Assembly: GCA_041937185.1 (NCBI GenBank)
Contig: CP166621.1
Location: 2,324,571-2,388,570, forward strand
Source of the DNA: Leptolyngbya sp. BL-A-14
GTDB taxonomy: Bacteria > Cyanobacteriota > Cyanobacteriia > Leptolyngbyales > Leptolyngbyaceae
Length of the DNA stretch: 64,000 bases
Reading direction: 5' to 3'
The notes below the pieces were generated by a model, which was given only the letters and a program-made list of their open reading frames with translations, ran no database searches and was not told the origin of the DNA. The translations under genes were made by a program, and so were the position numbers. Position 1 is the first letter of the stretch. Each line of letters opens with the position of its first letter. This document shows, one piece after another, positions 592 through 23,513 of this stretch.

Positions 592-700
592 GGATGAGGG
601 ATGAAGGCTGAGGGATGAATTAGCTTTGAAGATTGGAGAGTGGAGACTACTCCCCACTCCCTATTCCCCACTCCCCACTCTCTACTTACTTCCGCGACTG
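592..700. repeat. STRR-like heptamer tracts (GGGATGA units, then CCCCACT units)
   Basis: Tandem 7-mers visible directly downstream of dnaA. Confidence 0.7.
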
Positions 701-2086
701 ACTGGCAAGGTTAATGCGATCGCCCAATTGCCGCAACGTCTGCGCCATGCTGGGATCATTCTCCTTAAGCTGAGCAATCTTGTCGCAGCTATACATGACG
801 GTGGTATGGTCTTTGCCGCCGAATTCTTCACCAATTTTGGGCAAGCTCAAGTCGGTGTGGTGCCGCATGAGATACATGCCAATCTGACGGGCAACGCTAA
901 TTTCGCGTCGGCGAGAACTCCCTTTCAGATCATCAACCGACACATCAAAGGCTTCCGCGATCGCCAGGATCACGACTTCTGGGGTGGCTTCCACCTTCTC
1001 CACAGGGGGATTGAGAACGGGTGAAATGTTCTCGACCGTCATGGGCAACCCCGAAATGGAAATGTAGGCAACGGCTCGAATCAGCGCTCCTTCCAGTTCA
1101 CGAATGTTGTTGGTGTAGCTGGAGGCGATGTACTCAATCACTTCGCGCGGCAGGCGCATATTTTCGTATTCGGCCTTCTTTTGCAGAATTGCCATGCGTG
1201 TTTCCAAGTCGGGCGGCTGAATGTCAGCAATCAAGCCCATTGAAAAGCGCGAGCAGAGCCGTTCTTGCAGGCGAGGAATCTGGTTAGGTGGGCGATCGGA
1301 TGCCAGCACCACCTGCTTTCCTGTCTCGTGCAAGGTGTTGAAGGTATGAAAAAACTCTTCCTGGGTATACTCCTTGCCCTCAATGAACTGAATATCGTCC
1401 ACCAGCAGCACATCCACCGCCCGATAGCGCTCTTGAAAGCTCTGCCGACTATCTTTGCGAATGGCCGTAATGAGATCGTTGGTGAACTGTTCAGTAGACA
1501 CATAGACAATGCGAGAGGTCGAACAGATTTCTAGCCGATAGTGCCCGATCGCCTGCATCAAATGCGTCTTGCCCAGCCCAACCCCACCGCACAGAAAAAG
1601 TGGGTTAAACTCCCGTCCAGGCGATTCTGCGACGGCGAGAGAGGCTGCATGGGCCATGCGGTTATTGGAACCCACAACCAGCCGCGAAAACACGTATTTG
1701 GAATTTAACTCACTGCGCGCACTGTTGACAGTTGCAGGAGCCGCTGCCTGGGGAGAAGACGGAGGCTCAGCAAGGGTCTCGTGGGATGGCAATGGCCAAA
1801 ACATTTCAGCATTGTCGGTTGTCGCATCGTCACCCTGCGCGATCGTGATATGGATGTCGATCGAATGGCCCATCACCTCTTGGACAACCTCAGCAATGGT
1901 TTTGATGTAGTACTTTTGCAGCCAATTGCGCGCAAAGGGATTGGGCGTACGTATGACCAGGCAATTGCCATCCAATTGCTCCGCCACGGCAGTTTTGATC
2001 CAGGTTTCAAAGGTCGGGCGACTAAGCTGTACTTGCAAGCGTTCCAGCACTTGTGTCCAAAGATTTTCGAGCGTAATTTCGACCAC
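686..2086 (-). CDS. dnaA: chromosomal replication initiator protein DnaA
   Basis: 466 aa; Walker [10 protein letters not shown] in an AAA+ core; C-terminal DnaA DNA-binding domain (…[18 protein letters not shown]…). Confidence 0.95.
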
Positions 2087-2604: not shown

Positions 2605-3522
2605 TTTGGGTTTAGAGGCTGTTTGAAAAGTCGTCTAGACCGTAAAAAAGCTCACACGGTAGGCTGTCAGTAGTGAAGTCCAGCCCCGTGAGAGCGATGG
2701 TTAAATTCTACTCAAGCAACCTGACCCGCGCCCAATTTGACTTAATCCAGCCGCTGCTGCCGCCTGCCAAACCCGGTGGTCGCCCGCGCAGTACCAATCT
2801 GTGGGCAGTGCTGAACGCCATTTTTTACGTGGTCACGCAGGGCTGTAAATGGCGAGACATTCCTGGCGACTTTCCCGCGTGGCAAACGGTGTACACCTAC
2901 TTCCGCAACTGGCGCAAGGACGGCACCTGGCAAGCGCTCCATGAGCGGTTACGAGCGTGGACACGGGTCGCGACTGGACGCCCCGAAAGTCCTTCCGAGG
3001 TGATTCTCGATAGTCAAACGGTACCCACGGTGGCGATGGTGCAACAGGCCGTGGGGTTTGACTGCTTCAAAGCCACCAAAGGGCGTAAACGGCATACCGT
3101 CGTGGATACACTGGGTTTAGTGATGGTTGTATTGGTGACCGCAGCGAGTCTACCGGAACGCGAGGGCGGCAAACGGGTGCTGCAACGACTGTCTGAGCTG
3201 GGTGCGAAAGTCTGTCGCCTCTACCTCGTCTGGGTCGATGGTGGCTATAGTGGTCAACCCTTTGTGCAATGGGTGATGGATCGCTTCCGCTGGGTCATTT
3301 ACCCCGTGCTGCGCCCTGAACAGACTAAAGGCTTTGTGCTCCTGAAAAAGCGTTGGATTGTCGAACGGACGTTTGGCTGGTGGCAATGGTATCGGCGGCT
3401 CAATTGTGATTATGAACTACTTCCAGAAACCGCTGAAACCATGATTTATCTCGCGATGATCCGACTCATGGTGCGACGGTTGGCGTAATTTGTCACACCC
3501 CTCCCCCTTTTCAAACAGCCTC
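2605..3522 (+). mobile_element. IS5-family (IS427/IS1031-like) insertion sequence, about 918 bp, with 16-19 bp terminal inverted repeats and a TTA flanking direct repeat
   Basis: Left end gaggctgtttgaaaag (2605-2620); right end cttttcaaacagcctc (3507-3522) is its exact reverse complement; one transposase ORF inside; TTA on both flanks. Confidence 0.8.
2673..3488 (+). CDS. IS5-family DDE transposase
   Basis: 271 aa; typical IS5/IS4-superfamily motifs (…VDTLGL…DGGYSG…KRWIVERTFGW…). Confidence 0.85.
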   Translation: MKSSPVRAMVKFYSSNLTRAQFDLIQPLLPPAKPGGRPRSTNLWAVLNAIFYVVTQGCKWRDIPGDFPAWQTVYTYFRNWRKDGTWQALHERLRAWTRVATGRPESPSEVILDSQTVPTVAMVQQAVGFDCFKATKGRKRHTVVDTLGLVMVVLVTAASLPEREGGKRVLQRLSELGAKVCRLYLVWVDGGYSGQPFVQWVMDRFRWVIYPVLRPEQTKGFVLLKKRWIVERTFGWWQWYRRLNCDYELLPETAETMIYLAMIRLMVRRLA

Positions 3523-10099: not shown

Positions 10100-10231
10100 C
10101 CCATTCCTCAAAGCAGTTCTGAGATGGTGAACAAGCTGAACATTAGGAATGGCTGCAGTCGCCGATAAACTTAACCATCCTGCTTGACACGTTCCACACT
10201 TAAGCTGTTATGATAAACGCTGGTAACGCAT

Positions 10232-10303
10232 TGGGGCGTCGCCAAGTGGTAAGGCAGCGGGTTTTGGTCTCGCCATCCCTAGGTTCGAATCCTAGCGCCC
10301 CAG
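10232..10303 (+). tRNA. tRNA-Gln (anticodon TTG)
   Basis: Cloverleaf readable: acceptor TGGGGCG/CGCCCCA, D-arm GCCAAGTGGTAAGGC, anticodon loop tTTTGGt, T-arm GGTTCGAATCC. Confidence 0.85.
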
Positions 10304-10587
10304 TTTTTTCGAATATTCGGTGGGTTCAGTTCTCTTTCGCTGTTTGAAAGCTAGCTCGGCTGGACTGATCGCTCATCTTACTGCTCCAGCCAATCCCTAA
10401 ACTTAGCGAATAGAGGACTGGGGTTCGCCTTAGGGTAATCGTCTAGCGGCAAAGATCCTGACAAAACCCGTTCCGTATCAAATGATACATCTTTCTCGGA
10501 GATCTCTTGAAAGCTTTCAAGCAGCTTTCACATGTTGGGGGCGATCGCGCTATTCAGGGCGCTGCTATCGATCAAGCTTTGAGCTGA

Positions 10588-13452
10588 TTATCTCTTTACT
10601 CCATCGTAATTAGTGCCTCGTGAAGCCTGCGATTGAGTCGAACACTCTAGGGGCAATTGAACGTTGTTGTACAGTTTCGTTCCACTAGTTACCTTATTAA
10701 AGTAAATCTTAGGGTTCTTTCCTTTGAGTCCAAAATTCAAACTGATTGTCCCCCCAGGAGCTAAGTGCCGTGGCTTTAAGAACGTAGAGGGTTGGTTCGA
10801 TTTCCTCGGAGGCTGTGGTTTTCCGGACCTGCTCGAGGGCCGTAGTTTTTGGAGCATGCTTAAAGGGTTGCCGAGAACCCAGCTCCGTTGCGAGGAGGAC
10901 ACATTGTTCTCCCCGTCTTTCCTCAAGGTAGAAGATGAGGTTGGAGCTAGTTGCTTCGAAGAAGACTGATCTTTTGGTGAAGACGAATCACGCATCGGAA
11001 CACGGCAAATATCGTTCTGATAGATTCGATTAATCATCATCAATTTGCTCAAATCATAATAGTGTTTTGAACCATTAAATAGAGTAAAAAACTGCTCGTC
11101 TTTTGGTCTTTTCTTAAGGTCAAGCGTTAGATTTGTAATGTCTTCTCCAGTTGGAAGATCTTTTAAGGTAATGATGTAGCCGGATCTTTTCGTGTTTTTA
11201 GTGTCATCATTCTTAGTATCGTCTATCGCCAGTAGAATATTTTCGAACGTTTGATCTTGGTTGGCCACAAAGTCGATACCCAAAGACTTAATCAGACTTC
11301 GATCTGATTGATTACCTTTATTTTGATCAACCTCAATCTGTTCATCTTTATCAAAATGAATCTTCAGCCCCTTAGATGGCACACTGCCATCCTTTGGTTG
11401 AATACCTTCTACACTTGCTTTTGGTCGAATATCTTCTACACTTAACAAAAAGCCTGAGCCAGTCAAAAAGAAGGTAGAAGTATTTTTTTCTGTAGGGTTC
11501 GAAGATTTGCTAGTGATAGCATTGATGACAATCTTTTCATGCAAAGTGGTTTGCTCTTTATTGCTAGAGGTCTCGTTATTGCCAGCTATCTCATCAAGAG
11601 AAAAGTCCTTAACTAAATCATCTTGAGGGATAGAAGCAGTCGTTTTTGATTCTATATACTCCCGCAGTTCCTCAGTCCTATCTCTAAAAGCTTTTTTAAC
11701 TTTATTAGCTGTCTTTTGGTCTAGTTTTTTGAATTTTACGTCTTTTTCCAGCGCAGTCTGATATTCCAGCACAGTTGGGTATTCGTCTAGAGAAGTCTTC
11801 TTAAGGTCATTTCTTGCAGTTACTATCATCTCCGCAATCTTACCAGATATTTCTTCAAAGTCGGGGATATGATCGTTTGAGTCGTGATATTTGGTACTAT
11901 CTTTTAGTTGTGGAATCGACGGAGTCTTTTTTTGTAAATCTAAAGCATCTGTAATTTGTTTTTTATAATTCTCCTCAACCTGTTTTATATCTTCTCTAGC
12001 TTGTGATATGCCTGGTCTTGATGGAATTCTCATTACTATTTCAGCAATCTCTTTGTTAGTCTCGCCGAGCTTTTTTAAATCGATTCCAGTTTTAGGGACG
12101 CTAGTTTCAGGGTCTTTTATGCTATTTTGTCTATCGACTAATGCCTGAACTAACGAATCAAAAAGTCCCCCTATCCTTGAGTTATCACTATCGACTTTCT
12201 CTAGGTTACTTTCACGTGGCTCTGACGAAATTTGAAGTTGTCCTTCGGTTATATTGAATTCAACAGTATCTGAGTCTTGGCGCAAGGGGAATTTGAAGTA
12301 TTGCCCTTTAGGAAGGTCACGAAGAGAGAGTGGAAGCAGATCAATTTTGTCACCCTTTATACCACTATAAGTAATAGAGGAATCAGGAATACCTCCAGGT
12401 GTGTATGTCCATTCATAGTCGCTGGGTTCTGAAGTTGGAGAAGATGAAGGTGTTGCGGCAGTTGGAGAAGATGAAGGTGTTGCGGCAGTTGGAGACGATG
12501 AGGGTGTTGCTAGAGGTTGAGACTGTTTAGGCGTAGAAGATTTTGGCGATGCTGCAGTTGGAGAAGATGAAGGTGTTGCTGGAGGTTGGGATTGTTTAAG
12601 CGTAAACGTCACATAGCCTACTGTTTTAGGAGAATTGCTATCGTACACAGCTACCTGGTATGAACGATTCCACCACATTGGGCCCTTAATCGCTGTTGGC
12701 ACGAGAGTATGTCCGTCGGTAAGGCGACCTGTGTCATCAACTTTATAAACGCCCATCGTGTAGTACTCTTTGCGCTTTTGCATCGATTCAATGAGCAGTC
12801 CCAAAATCTCACCTGGCGACTGCTTGCGGATGGCTTTTGCCTCCTCTGATAGTTCATCCAGGCTTTGCAACGCAGAGTAGTAGGCAATATAGTTTTGTAT
12901 CGCACGGTTATTGTCAATTTCAACCGCCTTGGTTGCTCCCGGTTGAAAGGCTGCCGGAATCGATCTTCCCTTAAATGGTTGCCCTAAGAAGAGGCGTAAA
13001 CTGGCGATCGCCATCCCCTCGCATGCGCCCTCCTGGGTAATACTGTTTAGCTGCTTTGTTCGCCATGCGAGGGCGCTAGCGGTTAGAACACAAGTGTGGG
13101 GATTATCCACAATGAAGGTTCCCGGAAAGCAAACCGCGTCGGGCCCAAACATTTGAATCATATCCTCTGCTGTCAGAGAACCGTCTTCGAACTCTAGTTG
13201 CACCTCTTTTTTTTGATTTTGCTCCGTTGCGTTTTGAATCGCTTTCACTACATCGCCATTGTGAAACTTGAAGCCGTTTACGTTAGGATCAAAACCAATG
13301 TTGTATGTCGGATGATGCCACCATAAAACACTAAAAAACACCAAAAGACTGAGCAACACAGCACCAATCATTTGTTTGTGGGGAAGCAACCAAGTGGCAA
13401 CTAAATGTTTGCGACGATTCATAGCACCAACTAGCTGTTTGTAAGGATTCAT
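10588..13452 (-). CDS. large hypothetical membrane-anchored protein: N-terminal TM, Cys-containing domain, Pro/Thr/Ser-rich linker, and a Lys/Asp/Glu-rich C-terminal region encoded by AT-rich DNA
   Basis: 954-aa uninterrupted ORF; PT-repeat linker (…ATPSSSPTAATPSSSPTAATPSSSPT…); GC drops sharply from about 12.4 kb to the stop codon. Confidence 0.7.
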   Translation of the reverse strand: MNPYKQLVGAMNRRKHLVATWLLPHKQMIGAVLLSLLVFFSVLWWHHPTYNIGFDPNVNGFKFHNGDVVKAIQNATEQNQKKEVQLEFEDGSLTAEDMIQMFGPDAVCFPGTFIVDNPHTCVLTASALAWRTKQLNSITQEGACEGMAIASLRLFLGQPFKGRSIPAAFQPGATKAVEIDNNRAIQNYIAYYSALQSLDELSEEAKAIRKQSPGEILGLLIESMQKRKEYYTMGVYKVDDTGRLTDGHTLVPTAIKGPMWWNRSYQVAVYDSNSPKTVGYVTFTLKQSQPPATPSSSPTAASPKSSTPKQSQPLATPSSSPTAATPSSSPTAATPSSSPTSEPSDYEWTYTPGGIPDSSITYSGIKGDKIDLLPLSLRDLPKGQYFKFPLRQDSDTVEFNITEGQLQISSEPRESNLEKVDSDNSRIGGLFDSLVQALVDRQNSIKDPETSVPKTGIDLKKLGETNKEIAEIVMRIPSRPGISQAREDIKQVEENYKKQITDALDLQKKTPSIPQLKDSTKYHDSNDHIPDFEEISGKIAEMIVTARNDLKKTSLDEYPTVLEYQTALEKDVKFKKLDQKTANKVKKAFRDRTEELREYIESKTTASIPQDDLVKDFSLDEIAGNNETSSNKEQTTLHEKIVINAITSKSSNPTEKNTSTFFLTGSGFLLSVEDIRPKASVEGIQPKDGSVPSKGLKIHFDKDEQIEVDQNKGNQSDRSLIKSLGIDFVANQDQTFENILLAIDDTKNDDTKNTKRSGYIITLKDLPTGEDITNLTLDLKKRPKDEQFFTLFNGSKHYYDLSKLMMINRIYQNDICRVPMRDSSSPKDQSSSKQLAPTSSSTLRKDGENNVSSSQRSWVLGNPLSMLQKLRPSSRSGKPQPPRKSNQPSTFLKPRHLAPGGTISLNFGLKGKNPKIYFNKVTSGTKLYNNVQLPLECSTQSQASRGTNYDGVKR

Positions 13453-13540
13453 ATCGTCTCCACGAGCGTATTTTATTGCCAGTCTAAAGAGCCATTACGA
13501 CCTAAAAGTGAATCGTGCTTAGAGTCTATTTTCTTGTTAG

Positions 13541-16414
13541 TTATTTCTTGTTGACTATCGTTTTGATGTCATTGCAGAACTTACCCTCTGCTGAGTGCGG
13601 GTTGGCGACGAAATAGTCTTGTAGCCAATGGCAGCTACGCGCAAGCAAGAGATCAGGGTCTAGTTCCCATAGGATGAGGGTTTTATCATTACTAGCTGAG
13701 ACGATCGCTTCACCATTGGGGCTAAAGCCGATACTCTGCACGACGTCGCGATGCCCTTTGTATGTGCTGAGGAGTTGTCCATTCTGGCGACTCCAAAAGC
13801 GTACTGTACCGTCTACCCCTGCAGAGGCAAGGATTTGACCATCGGGGCTAAAACTGACATCAAGCACCTGTCCGAAATGTCCTCTCAAGATCTGTAACTC
13901 TCGCCCATCAGAGACCTTCCAGAGTTTGATTGTGCTGTCCTCACTACTAGAAGCAAGGGTTTGACCATCCGGGCTAAAACTGAGGTTCCAAATCTCACCC
14001 CTGTGCCCTTTAAAGGTGCGAATCTCGTGTCCATTCAACTGCCACAGCTTGATTGTGGTGTCATCGCTGGCTGAAGCCAACATTGTGCCATCGGGGCTAA
14101 AGCGAACACCCTCAACCTGGGCAGTGTGTCCTTTAAAGGTGCTCAGTACCTGTCCTTCTAAGTTCCAAAGTTTGACCGTTTTATCTTCCCCCCCGGAGGC
14201 GATCTTCTTTCCGTCTGGACTAAAGCTCACGCTCCAAACACCTCCCTTGTGCCCCTTCAAGGTTTTTAATACCTGGCCATCACTACTCCAAAGTTTAATG
14301 GTGCCATCGCCACTGGCAGATGCCATCGTTTGACTATTTGGGCTAAAGCTCACAGAGACAACCCGTTCTTGGTGCCCCTTCAGGGTCTTCAGAGCTTGAC
14401 CGCGAGCGTTCCACAGTTTAAGCGTCTTATCCTTACTGGCTGAAGCAATCAGCCTACTATCAGGGCTAAAGCTGACGCTGCGAACTTCGTCGCTATGCCC
14501 TTTAAGCATTTGGAGCGCTTGCTGATGCAAATTCCAAACTTGCACATTGCCATCGGTGCCAACCGATGTCAACGTTCGTCCATCGGGGCTAAAACTGGCA
14601 CTCTTCGCCGCATTGCTATGACCTCTAAAGGTTCCCAGCATCTTTCCATCCAGCGCTTGTAATCGAATGGTGCCGTCATCTCCTGTGGCAGCAATCACTT
14701 TGCTGTCGGGACTAAAATTCACCCCCTCAATTGGAGCCATGAATCCTATCAGCGTTCTCAACGGGACTCCATTTACGCTCCAAAGCTTGACGGTTTTATC
14801 CTTGCTGCCAGAAGCAATCCATTTGCCATCGGGGCTAAAGCAGACGGTGTAAACAGCATCACTGTGAGCCGGGATTATTTTCAAGACCTTTCCGTTTAAC
14901 CGCCATAGACGGATGGTTCTGTCATCACTGCCAGAAACTAGCGTTTGCCCGTTGGGGCTAAAGCTGACACTTTCAACTAAATCACGATGCCCTTTCAAAG
15001 TGCGGATTGGCTGCCCAAAGGACTGAGGTGATCCCGTACGCTCGACTGCCCAGAGACGGATGGTGTGATCGGCACTGGCCGATGCAAGGGTTTTACCGTT
15101 GGGGCTAAAACTCACGCTATATACTGTATCGGTATGCCCCTTCAGCGTTTTCAGCAAGGTGCCATCCGCCCTCCAGAGTTTGATGGTATTGTCCTTGCTT
15201 CCCGAGGCCAGCATCTGTCCGTTGGGGCTGAAGCTCACACTGCGAATTTCATCGCGATGCCCTGGTAGCGATCGTAGTTTTTGACCCTTACGGTTCCATA
15301 GTTCGATCGTTTGATCGCCAGCTACTGCCAGCGTTTGCCCATCGGGGCTCAAGCTAACGCTATACAAACGAGCGTTTTGCCCTGTGAAGGAGTTCTGTTG
15401 ATGTACGCCATACACCACCTGCTGTAGGGCACTAATGGCTCGCATGCGGGTGTCTGGGGTGATCTTGTCTTCCCATTGTTTGAGCTGTTGCCCCATGCGG
15501 ATGCTACCCAACAGCGCTTCGATGTCTAACCCTGACTTCAGGTTGCTTTCCACAATTAAGCTTTGGGCAGTAATCGTTTCATTGGCAGACTGTTTTTCGG
15601 CAATGGCCTTCGCTTCAATGGCTTCGTGTCGTTGTTGCAACGCCATGATGGTTGAGCCAATGGCCATTAGCAAGCCAGCCGAAACACAGACCAGTGCAGT
15701 TCTCTGTAGCCTATTTCTGGCTTTTTGCCGTGCCGTTTCAGCTTGACGGCTGGCACTGATGTAAGCGCCATGCAGTTTCGTCGGTTCCGGTTGTTTAGCC
15801 GTCTGTTGAAACATCCATTGCGCGGCTTCCTCCAGGTCGTCACCCTGCAGCAAACAGCTCTCATTGCGCTGCTTCTTCTCCCACTCGATCGCCCGCATCA
15901 GTAATCGAGCATGCTTACGGGCATGATCCAGGTCGGTTTCGATCGCCTTCAACAGCTTTTGGAATGCTTGATTGAAATCGTCCGTCTCCCGAAAAAACAG
16001 CCAGTTATGACGGCTAATCGCAGGATGGATATCTGCCGCACTAAACCCTTCTCGCCAGACCAGCGGCACCAACCGCTTCTGGTGGGCAACAGCATAATCC
16101 ACCTCCTGACGGCACACCTCCGAGGCGATCGAATCAGGACTGATCACAAAGACAAAGGTACTGGCGGCTTCAATGCCTGCTTTAATGGCTTCCCACCAAT
16201 CCTCAGTGGGTTGAATATCGTCCCAATCAATCCACGGATCATGGTTGTGTTTGCGAAACGTCGCATCCAGGATACGCACGAAGTCTATGTCTCTACGACA
16301 GTAAGAGATAAAGATTTCATTGACTTGTTCGCCTACTCTTTGATCGTCTACGCCAGTGGCAGATGCTGTAGCTCGATCGTTGTTAGTCACAGAGGAACCA
16401 TCTGTAACCGTCAT
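13541..16414 (-). CDS. TIR domain-TM helix-WD40 repeat (about 14 repeats) protein
   Basis: N-terminal TIR (FISYCRRD…FVISPDSIASEVCRQEV, conserved Glu present); hydrophobic segment RTALVCVSAGLLMAIGSTIMAL; many GH…WD units; ATG at 16414 preceded by GAGGGG. Confidence 0.85.
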   Translation of the reverse strand: MTVTDGSSVTNNDRATASATGVDDQRVGEQVNEIFISYCRRDIDFVRILDATFRKHNHDPWIDWDDIQPTEDWWEAIKAGIEAASTFVFVISPDSIASEVCRQEVDYAVAHQKRLVPLVWREGFSAADIHPAISRHNWLFFRETDDFNQAFQKLLKAIETDLDHARKHARLLMRAIEWEKKQRNESCLLQGDDLEEAAQWMFQQTAKQPEPTKLHGAYISASRQAETARQKARNRLQRTALVCVSAGLLMAIGSTIMALQQRHEAIEAKAIAEKQSANETITAQSLIVESNLKSGLDIEALLGSIRMGQQLKQWEDKITPDTRMRAISALQQVVYGVHQQNSFTGQNARLYSVSLSPDGQTLAVAGDQTIELWNRKGQKLRSLPGHRDEIRSVSFSPNGQMLASGSKDNTIKLWRADGTLLKTLKGHTDTVYSVSFSPNGKTLASASADHTIRLWAVERTGSPQSFGQPIRTLKGHRDLVESVSFSPNGQTLVSGSDDRTIRLWRLNGKVLKIIPAHSDAVYTVCFSPDGKWIASGSKDKTVKLWSVNGVPLRTLIGFMAPIEGVNFSPDSKVIAATGDDGTIRLQALDGKMLGTFRGHSNAAKSASFSPDGRTLTSVGTDGNVQVWNLHQQALQMLKGHSDEVRSVSFSPDSRLIASASKDKTLKLWNARGQALKTLKGHQERVVSVSFSPNSQTMASASGDGTIKLWSSDGQVLKTLKGHKGGVWSVSFSPDGKKIASGGEDKTVKLWNLEGQVLSTFKGHTAQVEGVRFSPDGTMLASASDDTTIKLWQLNGHEIRTFKGHRGEIWNLSFSPDGQTLASSSEDSTIKLWKVSDGRELQILRGHFGQVLDVSFSPDGQILASAGVDGTVRFWSRQNGQLLSTYKGHRDVVQSIGFSPNGEAIVSASNDKTLILWELDPDLLLARSCHWLQDYFVANPHSAEGKFCNDIKTIVNKK

Positions 16415-16678
16415 AGCGTCACCCCTCAAGCAGCACAAACGTGATTTCAGCGGATTCTAGTCGAGTACACCCTGATCTTGTAGGGAAGGGTGTCGAGTAT
16501 CAAGTATGGTGAATGCAAATGAAATTAACAGAGTGTTTTGGGACGGTGCTAATGTTCGACGTTGGGATCGTGGTTTTAACTGTCACACAAACTTACCTAA
16601 GCAATTTACTTTACTTAGAATATATCTGACAAGTTAAAATTGTTATCCGAATCCTTGAGCTTTACGGGCTTGACACTC

Positions 16679-17077
16679 TTACCGAACGCGATTGGAGCGC
16701 ACCATCAGGTTAAGCAGATGTTCGGTGACATCCGGTAGATGCTTGCACAAGCCTGTATGCACTCGTGATGTTTGAATGATGGTGCTACGGGGTGCAACCA
16801 GCCAATGGAAGCGTTCTCGCATGGGTAGCTGACCGATCGCACCAGCCGCTTTACCACCAGCACACACCACTGGAATCACAGCCAGATAGTCTCGAATGAG
16901 GTCTAGATCCAGCGTGGCGTCGAGTGCTAGCAAGCGTGCCTCATCAAGCTCAATGCGAGCCTCAAGAAAGCGGTTGCTGGCACAGGAAACAATCACGCCC
17001 ACATTGATAAACTCTTCACGCTCAACCTTGGGGACGACGCGAATGATGGCGTAGTCATAGGTGAAGTGATCGGGCAC
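16679..17077 (-). CDS. DUF3037-family protein
   Basis: 132 aa; start overlaps the upstream kinase-like gene by 23 nt. Confidence 0.65.
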   Translation of the reverse strand: MPDHFTYDYAIIRVVPKVEREEFINVGVIVSCASNRFLEARIELDEARLLALDATLDLDLIRDYLAVIPVVCAGGKAAGAIGQLPMRERFHWLVAPRSTIIQTSRVHTGLCKHLPDVTEHLLNLMVRSNRVR

Positions 17078-17837
17078 GCAGGGCTTCCTCCAGAAACGCG
17101 TGGGGTGTTTCTAATCGTCTCACCAAATATTCAATGAAAGCGTCCCGGTATTGGTTTGCGTCAGCAAAGGGAGTGCTGTCTAGCAGCCAGCTATCAGGAA
17201 TCAGTTGCACAATCTGGTCGATGAGAGTGGGCGTCAGTTTTGCGGTGAGCGTTTCATCGGCTGCTGGCAGTTCAGTTGCAAAGCGAAGCAACACGTGATC
17301 TTTAATGGCCGCAAAAGCTACCTGGCTACGATCGCGGTAGTTTTGCCAGGTGTGATGGAAGTACAGCGCGGCTCCGTGGTCGATCAGCCACAGGTTTCGG
17401 TGCCAGACCAGCATATTGGCATTGCGGGGAGTGCGATCGATGTTGGTGACGTAGGCATCAAACCAGACGATCGCAGACGCAAGATGCGCTTCAGCCTGCC
17501 CTGCGATCGGGTCAAAGGTCACTGAGCCAGGGAGGTAATCCAACGCAAGGTTCAGTCCCGCACTGGCCCGGATCAGGTCTTGAATTTCGGGGTCTGGTTC
17601 CGTACGAGCCAGGTCAGGGTCGAGCAGCACAAAAACAATTTCGGGAACGGGCAACCCGACTGCACGCGCAATTTCTCCGGCGACCAGTTCGGCAATCAGT
17701 GCCTTGGCTCCCTGTCCCGCGCCCCGAAACTTCAGCACATACATCCCATCGTCGTCAGCTTCAATAATGGCAGGCAGGGAGCCACCTTCACGCAGTGGGG
17801 TTACATATCTCGTCGCTACGACTGTTCGCAAGTTCAT
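17055..17837 (-). CDS. HipA-like / PI3-4-kinase-like atypical kinase (HipA_2-type, partner of DUF3037)
   Basis: 260 aa; catalytic-loop-like IDRTPRNANML and metal-binding-like LIDHG. Confidence 0.65.
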   Translation of the reverse strand: MNLRTVVATRYVTPLREGGSLPAIIEADDDGMYVLKFRGAGQGAKALIAELVAGEIARAVGLPVPEIVFVLLDPDLARTEPDPEIQDLIRASAGLNLALDYLPGSVTFDPIAGQAEAHLASAIVWFDAYVTNIDRTPRNANMLVWHRNLWLIDHGAALYFHHTWQNYRDRSQVAFAAIKDHVLLRFATELPAADETLTAKLTPTLIDQIVQLIPDSWLLDSTPFADANQYRDAFIEYLVRRLETPHAFLEEALRARSLHL

Positions 17838-19833: not shown

Positions 19834-21081
19834 CTAAAGACGACTGAGATCCTGCGGCTGCCCGCATTGCTTACAGTGGGGCAAATGTTTGTACGTCAGT
19901 TCGTGACAGTTCTGACATTCCATATACTGGTCATAGCCACAGTGCGGGCAGTAGTGGTCGTGGTGTCGAATGCTTTTGGCACAGCGAAGGCAGCGCGATC
20001 GCTGGACTCGGACAGAGGCTTGCCCCTTGGGGTTAAAAACAAAGCGCTGAAAGAACTTAATCATGCCAAACCCAATGACGGGAATCAGCAAGATGTAGAG
20101 ATAGCTAACCAGAAACAGGAGACCACTAAAAAGAGCCGTAAGGACATCGACAAGCAGTCGAAAGAGTACGCCAACCTGAAGAAACTCAAAGACCTTGAAG
20201 ACCAGCGGAATCAGAAAGATGACCAGTAAATGCCAGCTAATCAGCGCAACAAGTCCATACCCCTTGCGTTGAGCAAATTGGTGCACCACAAAAGCGATGA
20301 AGAGGAGTGGCAAGAGGAAAAGGGCTTGAAACGCAAATTGAATGCTGGGATACCAAAAAGAAGCTTGTTGATAGCCTTTTTCAACCGTATTAAATTGATC
20401 ATTATTGTTCAGAAGCGCCAGCCAGGCGGCTACTTCTGGTCGTGGAAAAAGCTCTTTTTTCAGTGTGGAAACGTCGCTTTCCAGTGTAGAAATCAGGCGT
20501 TTGTTTTGTTCTAATGTTTGTTTTGCTTTCTCCGCCCCAACCGTATTGATGGATTGATCACGTGGCTGACCCGCAATCTTTTCGAGCAGCGTAGAGTCGT
20601 ATTGAGTGCGGATGGTTTGATTGGATTGCTCAAGCTGATCAATCTTTGTTTCTTTTTGCCTGATGGTCGTTAAAAGCTGTTGATTAGCAGGAGTGATCAA
20701 GGCATCTTTAGACGTGGCATAAGCTAAACACGCTTCAGAAACCTTGCTCAGATGCCCTTGCTCAACCCGTTGATAAGACTGTCGAAACCCAGATCCGGTA
20801 AAACGATCGCCCGACACAGCCATACGAACAGATTCGTAGTCTTTAGCATTCGTTGTCTGGGTGCGATAGCTTTGCCATTCGGCATAACAAGGGTACGTCT
20901 GGGATGGACCAAGATGCCACTGACCAATGTCATCTAGCCCTATAAAAACATTAACCAGGATAAAAATATCAATCAGAATCAGAACAATCAGACTGACTTT
21001 ATTCAGTGGTTCATTCTTAATCGTTCCCGATTTACTAAAGAAGCGATTTAAGAGTCGTCGAAACCTGGAAAACATTATCAT
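19834..21081 (-). CDS. hypothetical multi-TM protein with a central coiled-coil region and a C-terminal double zinc-ribbon
   Basis: 415 aa; C-terminal CLRC…CPHCGYDQYMECQNCHE…CKQCG; somewhat AT-rich. Confidence 0.6.
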   Translation of the reverse strand: MIMFSRFRRLLNRFFSKSGTIKNEPLNKVSLIVLILIDIFILVNVFIGLDDIGQWHLGPSQTYPCYAEWQSYRTQTTNAKDYESVRMAVSGDRFTGSGFRQSYQRVEQGHLSKVSEACLAYATSKDALITPANQQLLTTIRQKETKIDQLEQSNQTIRTQYDSTLLEKIAGQPRDQSINTVGAEKAKQTLEQNKRLISTLESDVSTLKKELFPRPEVAAWLALLNNNDQFNTVEKGYQQASFWYPSIQFAFQALFLLPLLFIAFVVHQFAQRKGYGLVALISWHLLVIFLIPLVFKVFEFLQVGVLFRLLVDVLTALFSGLLFLVSYLYILLIPVIGFGMIKFFQRFVFNPKGQASVRVQRSRCLRCAKSIRHHDHYCPHCGYDQYMECQNCHELTYKHLPHCKQCGQPQDLSRL

Positions 21082-21613
21082 CTATCCTTCTGACAAGTGA
21101 ATGCATCGAGCTGAGGAAGCATGTGATAGTTTGCCCACTATCCTTGCTCAAATTTGATTGGGAATCTTTCGATCGCACGAATTCAAGCACAAGGATTTTA
21201 ACTCCATCGTCGGAAGCAACCGAAACGACTAACGTTCCTCCGCAATAGCTGACCGGTGCCCTAACATCAATAAGCCCCGATCGCAGCCGCACTCTCCCCA
21301 GCATGACCGATGCCGCTAGACGCGAGAGGGCGCTCTTAGCACGATCGAGTTAAGGGCGATCAAGCAAAGCTGTAATTATCCTCATTACAGCTCCAGAGTG
21401 GGCTAGCGGGTTTCCGAGAAGCGGTGTGAAAAATTTACACTTGGTGTACGGGCAACACACAGCTACAGCCTTTTCATCTAAAATCAAGCTGAAAGCACGA
21501 TTATCCTCCAAGCCTGTCCCATGCTTACGTCTACAGATTTCAGCGGGCTGATCAATCAGCGATTTGTGCAAAATTTCCTTCCCATTCCCGCGACGAACTC
21601 GTTAGCGAAGGGG

Positions 21614-22126: not shown

Positions 22127-23101
22127 TTATTTGGGTGGCTTTTGCCAGATCACAATAATGCCTCCTTCTTTATCTTTGGTTGGCACAACGTTGATATAAA
22201 ACGAAGCATTGCCCTTCGTTGCCACATAAACGGCTCCGCCCCCATAGGGTTGGCTCTCTTCTGGAACATCAAATTGGCTGCTTTGCAAGTTGCCTTTGAT
22301 AAAGGCATCAAAAAACGTTTCAGCGGTTGTGGATGCATCTAAATTTTTTACAAACCGCGCATCAATAATATCGGAACGAAGTTGTCCCCCGGTATAAAAC
22401 AATTCGGGTTGAGTAAAACTATCCGCCGCGACTTCTTGGGCATCAACCCCCGCAAAAATTGCATCGATTTCGGGTGGTACGGCCTTAGCTTTCGTTAATT
22501 CTGCAAGCGTTAACTCTTTAGGGGAAAGCACATACAATGTCGTTCCCTTAAAAATAAAGAGATTGAGATATTGAGTCAGATTATTTCTAGAAACCTGATA
22601 AATCTTACGATCGGGTTCATCTTTTGTTAAAGCAGCCTCGTACTTTTTCGCTTTCAGCTCGGTGTTAAAAAACGTAGAAACAAGCTTGATATCATCGCTT
22701 GATTGCACACAGGCCGTTAAGTTAAAACAACCTGGCACCCCTCCCGGATATTTGGGAAAGTCTTGCCACGGGTTAGCCGTTGAATCTGGTTTTGATTCCT
22801 GGGATGGCTTTGATGGCGGTGCTGGTGGACTCACTGGCTTCGCTTGAGACGGACGAGCAAGCTTAGGCTTTTGAGGACGCAGAACTTTTGGCAGTTGCCG
22901 TGGAGCAGGCTTAGACAATTTTGACAGTTGCGTGATGCGGACACTTTTCTCTGTTGGCTTAACAGGCGGTGTTTTGTGATCAGGGGCGATCGGCAGCAAC
23001 AGCAGAAAGCCATGCAGTCCTAGCGATACGACTGTTGCTAACCAGGCCGATTTCAAAAAACGACTCGATCGCCGCCTGGATCGCTCACATTCATCAGCCA
23101 T
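22127..23101 (-). CDS. hypothetical secreted/membrane-anchored protein with a Pro/Lys-rich spacer
   Basis: TM segment then PAPRQLPKVLRPQKPKLARPSQAKPVSPPAPPSKP; the maximal ORF to 23224 starts at TTG; ATG at 23101. Confidence 0.5.
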   Translation of the reverse strand: MADECERSRRRSSRFLKSAWLATVVSLGLHGFLLLLPIAPDHKTPPVKPTEKSVRITQLSKLSKPAPRQLPKVLRPQKPKLARPSQAKPVSPPAPPSKPSQESKPDSTANPWQDFPKYPGGVPGCFNLTACVQSSDDIKLVSTFFNTELKAKKYEAALTKDEPDRKIYQVSRNNLTQYLNLFIFKGTTLYVLSPKELTLAELTKAKAVPPEIDAIFAGVDAQEVAADSFTQPELFYTGGQLRSDIIDARFVKNLDASTTAETFFDAFIKGNLQSSQFDVPEESQPYGGGAVYVATKGNASFYINVVPTKDKEGGIIVIWQKPPK

Positions 23102-23513
23102 AGCCGGATAAGGCACAGTTTCAAGCGAAACTATTTTCTCGTCTGGTGTTGATGGACGATCACGATCGCAAGAGGCTACCGAGTCAGATATAGAATCAGG
23201 TAAGGACAACTTAATTACTAGCAAAGAAACAGCAGAAAGGTTTTTGGATTAAGCGGTTAATCCTCTAGAGAGCAGTGCAGTAATTTGCTTGCAGGCCTTA
23301 AAGAATGAGAATTAAATAACATCGGTTTTGCAGGTTGAGTTGAGGCACGAAACCTAACATCTCCAGGGTGTATAGCCTACTCTCCAAGAAGTAAGTTACA
23401 GCATGGCTATGCTAAAGGTTTCGCCAAGCTCAATCCAATCGATCCAGGTGATTTAATTGACGATCCTAAGTTGCACTGCTCTTAGATAGAAGAATGGTAG
23501 AGATTACGCGTGA

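What the first reader, a model, noticed from the sequence alone, without database searches (positions are those of the whole stretch)
10232..16414. TIR-TM-WD40 gene co-oriented with a 954-aa membrane-anchored protein of foreign composition, beside tRNA-Gln
Two minus-strand genes lie 88 bp apart and probably form an operon.

- The first encodes a TIR domain with the catalytic-type Glu retained (…SEVCRQEV…), then one hydrophobic helix, then about 14 WD40 repeats.
- The second encodes an N-terminal TM anchor, a Cys-containing domain of unknown fold, a Pro/Thr/Ser repeat linker and a Lys/Asp/Glu-rich C-terminal region of about 600 aa.
- The locus abuts a tRNA-Gln, which is a classic integration hot spot.

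Bacterial TIR domains are known NAD-consuming effectors in antiphage systems (established knowledge). A TIR-TM-WD40 sensor with a dedicated large membrane partner is not a described system to my knowledge (inference).
Basis: partly seen in the sequence, partly recalled or inferred. Interest (0 to 1): 0.7.

Follow-up and report, generated by a model that had tools for sequence, protein, structure and literature searches.

The report
Membrane TIR-WD40 gene beside orphan protease
Two neighbouring cyanobacterial genes, a membrane-anchored TIR-WD40 protein from a large uncharacterised family and a one-off surface cysteine-protease-like protein, are both real, but they are not found together anywhere else sampled, so there is no evidence that they form a new two-gene immune system.

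Summary
Two intact minus-strand genes lie 88 bp apart next to tRNA-Gln, in Leptolyngbya sp. BL-A-14.

- **ORF A (13541-16414):** TIR, then a conserved helical segment, one transmembrane helix and 14 WD40 repeats. The catalytic-position Glu is kept. It belongs to a large cyanobacterial family: 440+ metagenome loci, with 36 complete TIR-TM-WD40 genes among the best 80. Flanking charges predict TIR inside the cell and WD40 outside.

The "dedicated pair" reading is not supported. None of 80 ORF B-family loci has a TIR neighbour. None of 80 metagenomic ORF A-family loci holds an ORF B-type gene, and none was seen in 5 further homologue loci inspected. No integrase or att repeat accompanies the tRNA.

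Two leads remain: a PADLOC candidate defence pair (PDC-M66) lies directly upstream, and Chloroflexota ORF B relatives sit beside STAND-WD40 genes.

The parts
13541..16414 (-). ORF A, 957 aa from the ATG at 16414 (the ORF tool lists it from the TTG at 16438): a TIR / juxtamembrane helices / TM / 14xWD40 protein
15950..16315 (-). TIR domain of ORF A (aa 34-155). The catalytic-position Glu104 is at 16103-16105, in the motif C-R-Q-E
   Evidence: Pfam TIR_2 3e-26. The Glu is conserved in at least 90% of 120 homologues. Coordinates.
15701..15949 (-). Conserved helical juxtamembrane segment of ORF A (aa 156-238; consensus TDL..VR.HTRLLVRA.EW...LLRG.DL..A..W...P.PT). It has no Pfam model
   Evidence: Conservation line. 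Pfam covers only the TIR domain in this region.
15635..15700 (-). Single transmembrane helix of ORF A (aa 239-260). There are six Arg/Lys just before it and a net-neutral stretch after it
   Evidence: Hydropathy 2.17. A TM helix is present in 117 of 120 homologues. K+R bias is 4.6 against 2.0, with the N-side greater in 108 of 115.
13640..15412 (-). 14 WD40 repeats of ORF A (two seven-bladed propellers), followed by a short Cys-containing tail
   Evidence: Pfam WD40 gives 14 stretches, 3.6e-172. The DNA shows a 123-nt periodic repeat family. Mean identity between repeats is 44%.
10588..13452 (-). ORF B, 954 aa: a membrane-anchored papain-like protein. An identical protein is recorded as a hypothetical protein (ACAF41_11150) of Leptolyngbya sp. 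BL-A-14
13312..13380 (-). N-terminal signal-anchor helix of ORF B (aa 25-47), preceded by Lys/Arg residues
12592..13302 (-). Papain-like thiol peptidase domain of ORF B (aa 51-287). Key residues: Cys144 (13021-13023), His248 (12709-12711), Asp271 (12640-12642), Asn273 (12634-12636). Conserved Cys108 and Cys121 may form a disulphide
12418..12582 (-). Pro/Thr/Ser-rich insertion in ORF B (aa 291-345), encoded by tandem DNA repeats. It splits the conserved family module
   Evidence: Collinear continuation of the family module after the insert is shown.
12154..12417 (-). Continuation of the conserved family module in ORF B (aa 346-433; W-x-Y...Y-x-G...L-x-P-x-S-x-R-D-L). The similarity is weak but in register
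   Evidence: hhalign E 0.0074. BLASTP against P0002 is in register.
11503..12150 (-). Low-GC (0.37) Lys/Asp/Glu-rich segment of ORF B (aa ~435-650) with no detectable relatives. Probably a lineage-specific insertion or expansion
   Evidence: There was no hit, but that negative is weak.
11050..11490 (-). Beta-rich segment of ORF B (aa 655-801), weakly collinear with the C-terminal module of the family (GPGF...LDPGE...)
   Evidence: hmmsearch domains with conditional E 0.07 and 0.01, in the right order. BLASTP against P0002 gives E 0.32. Suggestive only.
10591..10965 (-). Ser/Pro/Lys-rich C-terminal tail of ORF B (aa 830-954), with GC3 0.52
10231..10304 (+). tRNA-Gln(UUG), convergent with ORF B. 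It is a neighbour, with no evidence that it served as an integration site
16679..17837 (-). Upstream, co-oriented HipA_2 kinase (17055-17837) and DUF3037 (16679-17077) pair, which matches PADLOC candidate defence system PDC-M66A/B. This is context, not shown to be part of one unit

Best explanation
The locus holds two real genes that are neighbours but are not a conserved two-gene system.

**ORF A** is an ordinary member of a large family, so far seen only in cyanobacteria, of membrane-anchored TIR proteins.
- The constant N-terminal module is a TIR domain with the catalytic-position Glu, then about 80 conserved helical residues and one transmembrane helix. It is fused to variable C-termini; here these are two WD40 propellers.
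- Predicted topology is TIR in the cytoplasm and WD40 outside the membrane.
- The most likely mechanism is inferred, not shown. Ligand binding or crowding of the WD40 propellers at the envelope clusters the cytoplasmic TIR domains. The clustered TIR domains then cleave NAD+, either depleting it or making a nucleotide signal, as in known bacterial TIR immune effectors. This would be a conflict or abortive-infection type sensor-effector in one polypeptide.

**ORF B** is a lineage-specific member of a large, unnamed family of secreted or surface proteins.
- The family's core is a papain-like Cys-His-Asp thiol peptidase, or a related acyl-transfer enzyme. In ORF B the core is anchored by an N-terminal helix and faces the periplasm or cell surface.
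- ORF B has acquired a Pro/Thr linker insertion, a roughly 220-aa low-GC charged insertion and a Ser/Pro/Lys tail.
- Its closest relatives are in Acidobacteriota and Chloroflexota, so its core was probably acquired horizontally.

The two genes may be co-transcribed, but nothing shows that they work together.
For: **ORF A**
- Pfam TIR_2 scores 3e-26 and WD40 gives 14 matches.
- More than 215 homologues of the TIR-TM module were found, and every one that carries an organism name is a cyanobacterium. Their C-termini are WD40, PF13355, CHASE2 or NACHT.
- The transmembrane helix is present in 117 of 120 homologues.
- The Glu of the C-x-x-E motif is conserved in at least 90%. That this is the catalytic position in TIR NADases, as in the plant TIR motif W-C-L-x-E-L, is established knowledge.
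- The positive-inside bias is 4.6 against 2.0 K+R, with the N-side greater in 108 of 115.
- CHASE2 and ARC6-IMS-type domains occupy the same position after the helix. That they are extracytoplasmic is established knowledge.
- At least 440 metagenome loci exist, and 36 of the best 80 are complete TIR-TM-WD40 genes of about 830-1340 aa, most of them about 900-1000 aa.
- The upstream HipA_2/DUF3037 pair matches candidate defence system PDC-M66.

**ORF B**
- Exhaustive HMMER found 1,397 representative clusters, 988 of them below 1e-10.
- Cys144, Gly146, His248, Asp271 and Asn273 are conserved in 97-100% of 145 sequences.
- The AF2 model has pLDDT 92.9 and pTM 0.90. Cys144 opens a helix, and His248 and Asp271 lie on successive strands.
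- Other family members carry DUF11, beta-helix, Big_9 and cadherin-like domains, which mark surface proteins.
- Of 80 genome loci, 79 are non-cyanobacterial.

**No pairing**
- Searches show no co-occurrence.

**No island hallmarks**
- Searches show none.
Against: - The 88-bp gap without a terminator, the shared strand and a good ribosome-binding site are compatible with an operon.
- Both proteins are predicted to expose their large domains on the same, outer side of the membrane, so physical interaction is conceivable.
- In Chloroflexota, ORF B-family genes sit divergently next to an orthologous BTAD-NB-ARC-WD40 gene. This is a second, independent case of this protease family beside a WD40 sensor protein.
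- ORF B has no close relative at all: the nearest is 39% identical over 20% of its length. 'Never found together' therefore partly reflects that ORF B itself is unique.
- NADase activity, topology and protease activity are all untested.
- WD40 arrays of this type are otherwise typical of cytoplasmic STAND proteins, which argues against an external location.
Confidence: 0.68

Rival explanations
1. ORF A and ORF B form a dedicated two-gene antiphage system: a TIR-TM-WD40 sensor/effector working with a specific large membrane partner.
For: - The genes are co-oriented, 88 bp apart, with no terminator-like site between them and a GGAG before the ORF B start.
- Both have N-in single-pass anchors with large outward-facing parts.
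- A candidate defence pair, PDC-M66, lies immediately upstream.
- ORF B-family genes lie beside STAND-WD40 genes in Chloroflexota.
Against: - None of 80 ORF B-family loci has a TIR neighbour.
- None of 80 metagenomic TIR-TM loci has an ORF B-type gene, and none was seen in 5 further homologue loci inspected.
- Most complete TIR-TM-WD40 genes have no co-oriented ORF of 150 aa or more starting within 600 bp downstream, and the rest have unrelated ones.
- GC3 differs, 0.39 for ORF B against 0.54 for ORF A, which suggests different histories.
- No PADLOC model matches ORF B.
Confidence: 0.1
2. The segment from tRNA-Gln to the HipA_2 gene (about 10.3-17.8 kb) is a horizontally acquired defence islet inserted at the tRNA. 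It would carry PDC-M66, the TIR-TM-WD40 gene and ORF B as independent cargo.
For: - tRNA-Gln sits at the edge of the segment.
- PDC-M66A and PDC-M66B hits score 3e-26 and 5.8e-08.
- TIR effectors are typical defence cargo (established knowledge).
- The relatives of the ORF B core are almost all non-cyanobacterial, and its middle part has GC3 of 0.30-0.33.
Against: - There is no copy of the tRNA 3' end elsewhere in the window, even allowing 3 mismatches.
- No flanking direct repeats were found.
- No integrase or recombinase is among the adjacent genes.
- ORF A, DUF3037 and HipA_2 have host-like GC and GC3.
- Synteny in sister genomes could not be examined.
Confidence: 0.15
3. ORF A is not an immune effector. 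It would be a signalling or scaffolding membrane protein of filamentous cyanobacteria, acting in cell-cell communication, development or envelope surveillance, with the TIR domain serving as an oligomerisation module. ORF B would be an ordinary secreted protease or adhesin for nutrition or surface remodelling.
For: - The family is seen in cyanobacteria and is fused to sensor domains such as CHASE2.
- Neighbours of homologues are mostly housekeeping genes.
- The best sequence matches of the TIR domain among solved structures are to the non-enzymatic adaptor MyD88.
- ORF B-family members carry adhesin-type domains.
Against: - The catalytic-position Glu is conserved in at least 90% of the family. 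MyD88 has Gln at that position in the alignment.
- Some homologues sit beside conflict-type genes: a CHAT protease in L083 and RyR/TPR-S/cyclase genes in L083, L086 and L103.
- A candidate defence pair lies adjacent in this window.
Confidence: 0.2

Closest known systems
Bacterial TIR-domain immune effectors (Thoeris ThsB, TIR-STAND/Avs-like and bNACHT proteins, SPARTA TIR-APAZ)
   Same: ORF A has a TIR domain with the catalytic-position Glu. PADLOC and NCBIfam give TIR-level hits to ThsB, to an Argonaute-associated TIR model (Aga_TIR) and to ThcB4 at 1e-6 to 4e-9. The C-terminal repeat array could act as a sensor, as WD40 or TPR arrays do in STAND proteins.
   Different: ORF A has no NTPase (STAND) domain. 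No SIR2, Macro, SLOG, Argonaute or SAVED gene turned up among the neighbours that were scanned. A conserved transmembrane helix lies between the TIR domain and the repeats. The hits to defence models cover only the TIR domain and fall far below the family cut-offs; for example NF058526 scores 27 bits against a cut-off of 220.
Animal Toll-like receptors (functional analogy only)
   Same: Both are single-pass membrane proteins with a repeat-built ectodomain and a cytoplasmic TIR domain.
   Different: The domain order is reversed, with the TIR domain at the N-terminus. The repeats are WD40 rather than LRR. This TIR keeps the catalytic Glu, whereas TLR and MyD88 TIR domains are scaffolds. No homology beyond the TIR fold is implied.
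Membrane-proximal 'conflict systems' of multicellular bacteria, with a constant effector module and variable C-termini (Kaur et al., eLife 2020 PMC7159879; eLife 2021 PMC8195603)
   Same: The theme is the same: a constant N-terminal effector module is fused to highly variable C-termini. These include transmembrane helices with extracellular domains such as CHASE2, and repeat arrays that form large superstructures. TIR and peptidase effectors also appear, and the systems are enriched in filamentous bacteria.
   Different: In the passages read, those papers do not describe a TIR-TM-WD40 architecture. There is no MoxR/vWA, DO-GTPase, EACC1 or TRADD-N component in this locus.
Clan CA papain-like cysteine peptidases, closest to the secreted bacterial C10 family (streptopain, interpain) and to C47 (staphopain)

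Membership tests
TIR-domain NADase (enzymatic TIR) | TIR fold detectable by a profile | tested here: met
   Pfam TIR_2 scores 3.1e-26 (92.7 bits against a cut-off of 28). TIR and ThsB_TIR also pass their cut-offs.
TIR-domain NADase (enzymatic TIR) | Catalytic Glu in the C-x-x-E / W-C-x-x-E-L motif | tested here: met
   E104 lies in S-E-V-C-R-Q-E-V and is conserved in at least 90% of 120 homologues. That this position is catalytic comes from established knowledge of plant and bacterial TIR domains. MyD88 has Gln there.
TIR-domain NADase (enzymatic TIR) | NAD+ cleavage activity | not testable with these tools
   This needs a biochemical assay.
Thoeris | A ThsB-type TIR protein together with a ThsA (SIR2 or Macro/SLOG) gene in the same locus | tested here: not met
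   There are only weak ThsB-model hits on the TIR domain, at 1e-6 to 8e-3. The neighbours are DUF3037, HipA_2, ABC transporter genes and ORF B, and none is ThsA-like.
STAND / NLR-like (Avs, bNACHT, AP-ATPase) TIR-WD40 proteins | A central P-loop STAND NTPase domain between the effector and the repeats | tested here: not met
   Pfam finds only TIR and WD40. The 180 aa between them are the conserved helical segment, the transmembrane helix and a linker.
Cyanobacterial TIR-TM-WD40 family (database family, unnamed) | TIR, conserved juxtamembrane segment, single transmembrane helix and WD40 array in one protein of about 900-1000 aa | tested here: met
   ORF A is 43-59% identical to the homologues over the N-module. 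The transmembrane helix is present in 117 of 120. 36 complete TIR-TM-WD40 genes are among the 80 best metagenome loci.
Papain-like (clan CA) thiol peptidase fold | Nucleophile Cys at the N-terminus of a helix, with His and Asp/Asn on following beta-strands, and fold similarity to known members | tested here: met
Peptidase family C10 (streptopain) | Sequence membership by the Pfam or MEROPS profile | tested here: not met
Unnamed ORF B-domain family (G-H-C-E-G-M-A / G-H / Y-D-N-N-x-P) | A significant match to the family profile that retains the invariant Cys, Gly, His, Asp and Asn | tested here: met
   The family HMM matches ORF B at 1.7e-64, and hhalign gives 100% probability. All five residues are retained. 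ORF B has Ala where 86% of members have His before the Cys.
tRNA-anchored integrative genomic island | An integrase next to the tRNA and a direct repeat of the tRNA 3' end at the far border | tested here: not met
   There is no second copy of the 21-nt tRNA 3' end in 64 kb, allowing up to 3 mismatches. No flanking repeats were found. No integrase domain is present in the adjacent genes.
Conserved two-gene system (ORF A family + ORF B family) | Repeated co-occurrence of the two families in unrelated genomes | tested here: not met
   No co-occurrence was found in 80 genome loci of the ORF B family or in 80 metagenome loci of the ORF A family. None was seen in 5 further ORF A-family loci either.

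The most novel reading that the evidence does not exclude
TIR-TM-WD40 proteins, and the wider TIR-TM-X family, would be bacterial 'outside-in' TIR receptors. An extracytoplasmic WD40 ectodomain would sense an envelope or extracellular cue and switch on a cytoplasmic TIR NADase, giving a Toll-like-receptor topology that arose independently in filamentous cyanobacteria. In this genome, the neighbouring surface papain-like protease ORF B would generate or process the ligand, or the receptor itself, in the way the protease cascade upstream of Drosophila Toll does. The independent adjacency of ORF B-family proteases to BTAD-NB-ARC-WD40 genes in Chloroflexota would then reflect a general link between this protease family and propeller-type sensors.
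Probability: 0.07. Interest if true: 0.8.

Novelty: new variant of a known kind. Interest (0 to 1): 0.4.

Why it matters
The proposed new two-gene defence system does not hold up, which removes a false lead. Checking it brought out two things that no paper turned up by my literature searches describes.

- **A membrane-anchored TIR family.** Cyanobacteria carry a large family of TIR proteins with a conserved catalytic Glu, a conserved juxtamembrane segment and interchangeable domains after the transmembrane helix (WD40, CHASE2, ARC6-IMS-like). If the predicted topology is right, these proteins signal across the membrane. That would extend bacterial TIR biology beyond the known cytoplasmic sensors.
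- **An unnamed peptidase-like family.** A papain-like thiol peptidase family with at least 1,397 sequence clusters has no Pfam or NCBIfam model. It is common in soil Acidobacteriota and in Chloroflexota and sits in surface proteins. It deserves a family definition and a biochemical test.

Tried and rejected
**Family libraries and sequence searches on ORF B**
- Pfam, NCBIfam and PADLOC scans of ORF B, whole and in three pieces, gave nothing.
- A word-indexed homology search of full-length ORF B returned only itself and one distant protein, P0002. This looked like an orphan, but it was an artefact of limited sensitivity. Exhaustive HMMER then found 1,397 clusters.
- A search with ORF B aa 346-830 returned nothing, not even the self hit, so it is a weak negative. 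The fragment search with ORF A likewise missed the self protein.
- PDB sequence searches with the single domain and with the 46-sequence profile gave no meaningful hit.
- tblastn of ORF B against the plasmid and phage collections found no match.

**Structure**
- The first AF2 run, with a 2-sequence alignment, was unusable at pLDDT 38. It was rerun with 46 sequences.
- Foldseek against PDB and against viral structures gave only weak hits, with E of 0.03 or higher. The afdb50 library was unavailable.

**Locus and synteny searches**
- The search for related loci with the 46-sequence alignment failed for lack of a conserved stretch. A 5-sequence alignment worked.
- Exact look-ups of P0052 and P0001 found no record.
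- The Ser/Thr-kinase-TPR-PD40 genes near ORF B-family genes in Pyrinomonadaceae were rejected as a real partner. Only the kinase domains align, at about 30% identity, and their positions vary.

**Literature**
- Searches for TIR with WD40, with 'transmembrane' and with CHASE2 found no description of this architecture.

Full report
**Observation**

The window carries two intact minus-strand ORFs. ORF A is listed at 13541-16438 from a TTG. The ATG at 16414, preceded by GAGG, is the likely start and gives 957 aa. ORF B lies at 10588-13452 and is 954 aa. They are separated by 88 bp. tRNA-Gln(UUG) lies at 10231-10304 on the plus strand, convergent with ORF B. An identical ORF B protein is on record as a hypothetical protein of the metagenome-assembled genome Leptolyngbya sp. 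BL-A-14. The descriptive part of the finding is therefore confirmed.

**ORF A**

- *Domains.* Pfam finds TIR_2 (3.1e-26) at aa 42-163 of the 965-aa ORF as listed from the TTG, which is aa 34-155 in 957-aa numbering, and 14 WD40 repeats. A single strongly hydrophobic helix lies at aa 239-260.
- *Homologues.* A homology search with the first 354 residues returned more than 215 proteins, and every one that carries an organism name is from a cyanobacterium. They share the TIR domain, a strongly conserved helical segment of about 80 residues (TDL..VR.HTRLLVRA.EW...LLRG.DL..A..W) and the transmembrane helix. Their C-termini differ: WD40 arrays, a PF13355 domain followed by a second helix, CHASE2, or NACHT. 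The helix is present in 117 of 120 homologues.
- *Catalytic residue.* The Glu of C-R-Q-E (E104) is conserved in at least 90% of them. From established knowledge of plant and bacterial TIR domains (W-C-x-x-E-L), this is the catalytic position. In the alignment to MyD88, a non-enzymatic TIR, the position is Gln.
- *Topology.* Lys+Arg counts in the 15 residues flanking the helix are 4.6 on the N-side against 2.0 on the C-side, with the N-side greater in 108 of 115 homologues. This predicts TIR inside and the C-terminal part outside. That fits CHASE2 and ARC6-IMS-type domains occupying the same position in paralogous architectures.
- *Abundance.* A metagenome scan found at least 440 loci. Of the best 80, 36 carry complete TIR-TM-WD40 genes of about 830-1340 aa, most of them about 900-1000 aa. 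ORF A is thus one member of a big family that databases hold but nobody has characterised.
- *Relation to known systems.* There is no STAND NTPase domain, and no ThsA-, SAVED- or Argonaute-type gene turned up among the neighbours scanned. ORF A is therefore not a member of Thoeris, Avs/bNACHT, CBASS or SPARTA. The PADLOC and NCBIfam hits cover only the TIR domain and are far below the family cut-offs.

**ORF B**

- *No known family.* No family library recognises it. The word-indexed search made it look like an orphan.
- *A large hidden family.* An exhaustive profile search with aa 45-290, aligned to the one distant hit, found 1,397 representative clusters (988 below 1e-10).
- *Conserved residues.* In 145 aligned domains, Cys144, Gly146, His248, Asp271, Asn273, Gln196, Trp130 and a Cys108/Cys121 pair are 94-100% conserved.
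- *Domain partners and taxonomy.* Other family members carry signal peptides, DUF11, beta-helix, Big_9 and cadherin-like domains, so they are surface or secreted proteins. Of 80 genome loci, 79 are from Acidobacteriota, Chloroflexota, Actinomycetota, Thiomargarita and other non-cyanobacteria. Only one, a Nodosilinea, is cyanobacterial.
- *How ORF B departs from the typical member.* The typical member is about 600 aa. ORF B has a signal-anchor instead of a signal peptide. A Pro/Thr/Ser insertion encoded by 27-nt tandem repeats splits the conserved module. A charged segment of about 220 aa has 37% GC. Weak but collinear traces of the family's C-terminal module follow at aa 655-801. The protein ends in a Ser/Pro/Lys tail.
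- *Composition.* GC3 is low (0.30-0.33) only in aa 346-830. The protease core (0.50) and the tail (0.52) are near the neighbours' 0.54-0.64.
- *Is the low-GC part coding?* An open frame of about 485 codons at this composition is very unlikely by chance. My own estimate from base frequencies is of the order of 1e-15. The segment is therefore coding.

**Are the two genes a system?**

- *From the ORF B side.* None of 80 family loci with flanks of up to 10 kb contains a TIR gene. The one distant full-length-like relative sits among unrelated genes.
- *From the ORF A side.* None of 80 metagenome loci with flanks of up to 8 kb contains an ORF B-family gene. This was an HMM search whose positive control on the window scored 1.4e-56. 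Five individually inspected homologue loci show none either.
- *Downstream genes.* Most complete TIR-TM-WD40 genes have no co-oriented ORF of 150 aa or more starting within 600 bp downstream. Where one exists it is unrelated: DUF4336-like, a second TIR-TM-WD40 paralogue, an MFS-HEAT-cNMP protein, or a RyR/TPR-S/cyclase-like protein.
One caveat applies: ORF B has no close orthologue anywhere, so the absence of the pair partly reflects its uniqueness.
- *Co-transcription.* It remains possible, because there is no terminator-like site in the gap and a GGAG precedes the ATG.

**The tRNA**

The window holds no second copy of the tRNA 3' end, allowing up to 3 mismatches. No flanking direct repeats were found. 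No integrase is present; the neighbours are LivM/LivG, DUF3037, HipA_2, ABC-2 transporter genes and a solute-binding protein, with dnaA and an IS4/5 transposase further away. The 'integration hot spot' remains only a positional remark.

**Leads that keep a little of the idea alive**

- *Candidate defence pair upstream.* The co-oriented pair directly upstream of ORF A, HipA_2 kinase plus DUF3037, matches PADLOC candidate defence system PDC-M66A/B (3e-26 and 5.8e-08). ORF A therefore sits in a defence-flavoured neighbourhood.
- *Chloroflexota pairing.* ORF B-family genes there are divergently adjacent to an orthologous BTAD-NB-ARC-WD40 gene of about 1,440 aa in four loci, and lie within a few kb of it in two more. 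This is an independent case of the protease family beside a WD40 sensor protein. My rough estimate is that one such case among about 30 independent synteny groups has a chance probability of about 0.2. It is a lead, not evidence.
- *Recurrent partner of ORF A homologues.* Three TIR-WD40 homologues sit beside a RyR/MAP3K_TRAF_bd/TPR-S/cyclase-like gene. If these proteins have a recurrent partner, it is that gene rather than ORF B.

**Mechanism (inferred)**

- ORF A most likely acts as a single-chain sensor-effector. The WD40 propellers, predicted to lie outside the membrane, bind a ligand or sense envelope perturbation. The conserved juxtamembrane helices and the transmembrane helix transmit clustering to the cytoplasmic TIR domains. 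The clustered TIR domains then hydrolyse NAD+ or make a nucleotide signal, as shown for other bacterial TIR effectors (established knowledge).
- ORF B most likely is an envelope- or surface-exposed thiol peptidase, or a related acyl-transfer enzyme, held away from the membrane by flexible low-complexity spacers.
- Shown here: domain identities, conservation of catalytic-type residues, family sizes, taxonomic spread and lack of co-occurrence.
- Inferred: topology, enzymatic activities and any role in defence.

**Literature**

Full-text searches found no description of a TIR-TM-WD40 architecture. The closest conceptual framework is the set of membrane-proximal conflict systems in multicellular bacteria, which have constant effector modules and variable C-termini, sometimes extracellular (PMC7159879, PMC8195603).

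**Verdict**

The genes are real and well described, and the proposed dedicated pair is not supported. ORF A is a new member of a large uncharacterised family. ORF B is a divergent, lineage-specific member of an unnamed papain-like family. Interest is moderate, and it comes from these two family-level by-products rather than from the locus itself.

Noticed in passing
window 16679-17837 (-): A HipA_2-type kinase (17055-17837) overlaps a DUF3037 gene (16679-17077). The pair lies directly upstream of ORF A and is co-oriented with it. It matches PADLOC candidate defence system PDC-M66A (3e-26) and PDC-M66B (5.8e-08).
   Followed up: partly
L083 3673-5910; L086 7591-9873; L103 2522-4813: Three TIR-TM-WD40 homologues, one from Calothrix sp. 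FACHB-156 and two from metagenomes, sit next to a gene of about 750 aa with RyR, MAP3K_TRAF_bd, TPR-S and weak guanylate-cyclase matches. This may be a recurrent partner of the family. It is absent from the window. L083 also has a CHAT protease with a TPR gene nearby.
   Followed up: partly
L042, L043 (4766-9094 and 9476-11995), L048, L074; looser in L045, L046: In Chloroflexota, the ORF B-family protease gene (signal peptide, DUF11, protease, C-terminal module) is divergently adjacent to an orthologous BTAD-NB-ARC-WD40 gene of about 1,440 aa. The STAND proteins are about 52% identical between loci.
   Followed up: partly
proteins P0004/P0008, P0121, P0122: The same TIR / juxtamembrane / TM module is fused to other C-termini: PF13355 (ARC6 IMS-like) plus a second transmembrane helix in the most common form of about 450 aa, CHASE2, and NACHT. 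This is a constant effector module with swappable sensor domains.
   Followed up: partly
L100 7968-10991 and 11041-14508: Two TIR-TM-WD40 paralogues lie in tandem, 50 bp apart. The second has additional C-terminal TPR-like repeats.
   Followed up: no
window 686-2086 (-) and 2673-3488 (+): dnaA lies about 8 kb from the locus, so the window may be near the replication origin region. An IS4/5-family DDE transposase sits beside it.
   Followed up: no
window 19834-21081 (-) and 22127-23224 (-): Two ORFs of 415 and 365 aa have no Pfam or PADLOC match. The first also lies in a stretch of lower GC (0.44-0.47 at 20000-21500).
   Followed up: no
window 13541-13640 (ORF A C-terminus) and L100: The tail after the last WD40 repeat (LD..LL...C.WL..Y...NP......C) is shared with the L100 paralogue and contains two conserved Cys. 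I could not tell whether this marks an extracytoplasmic disulphide.
   Followed up: no
Fragment queries to the word-indexed protein search did not return the window's own proteins, and the exact look-up of P0001 found no record. Negative results from those tools for this genome should be read with care.
   Followed up: no
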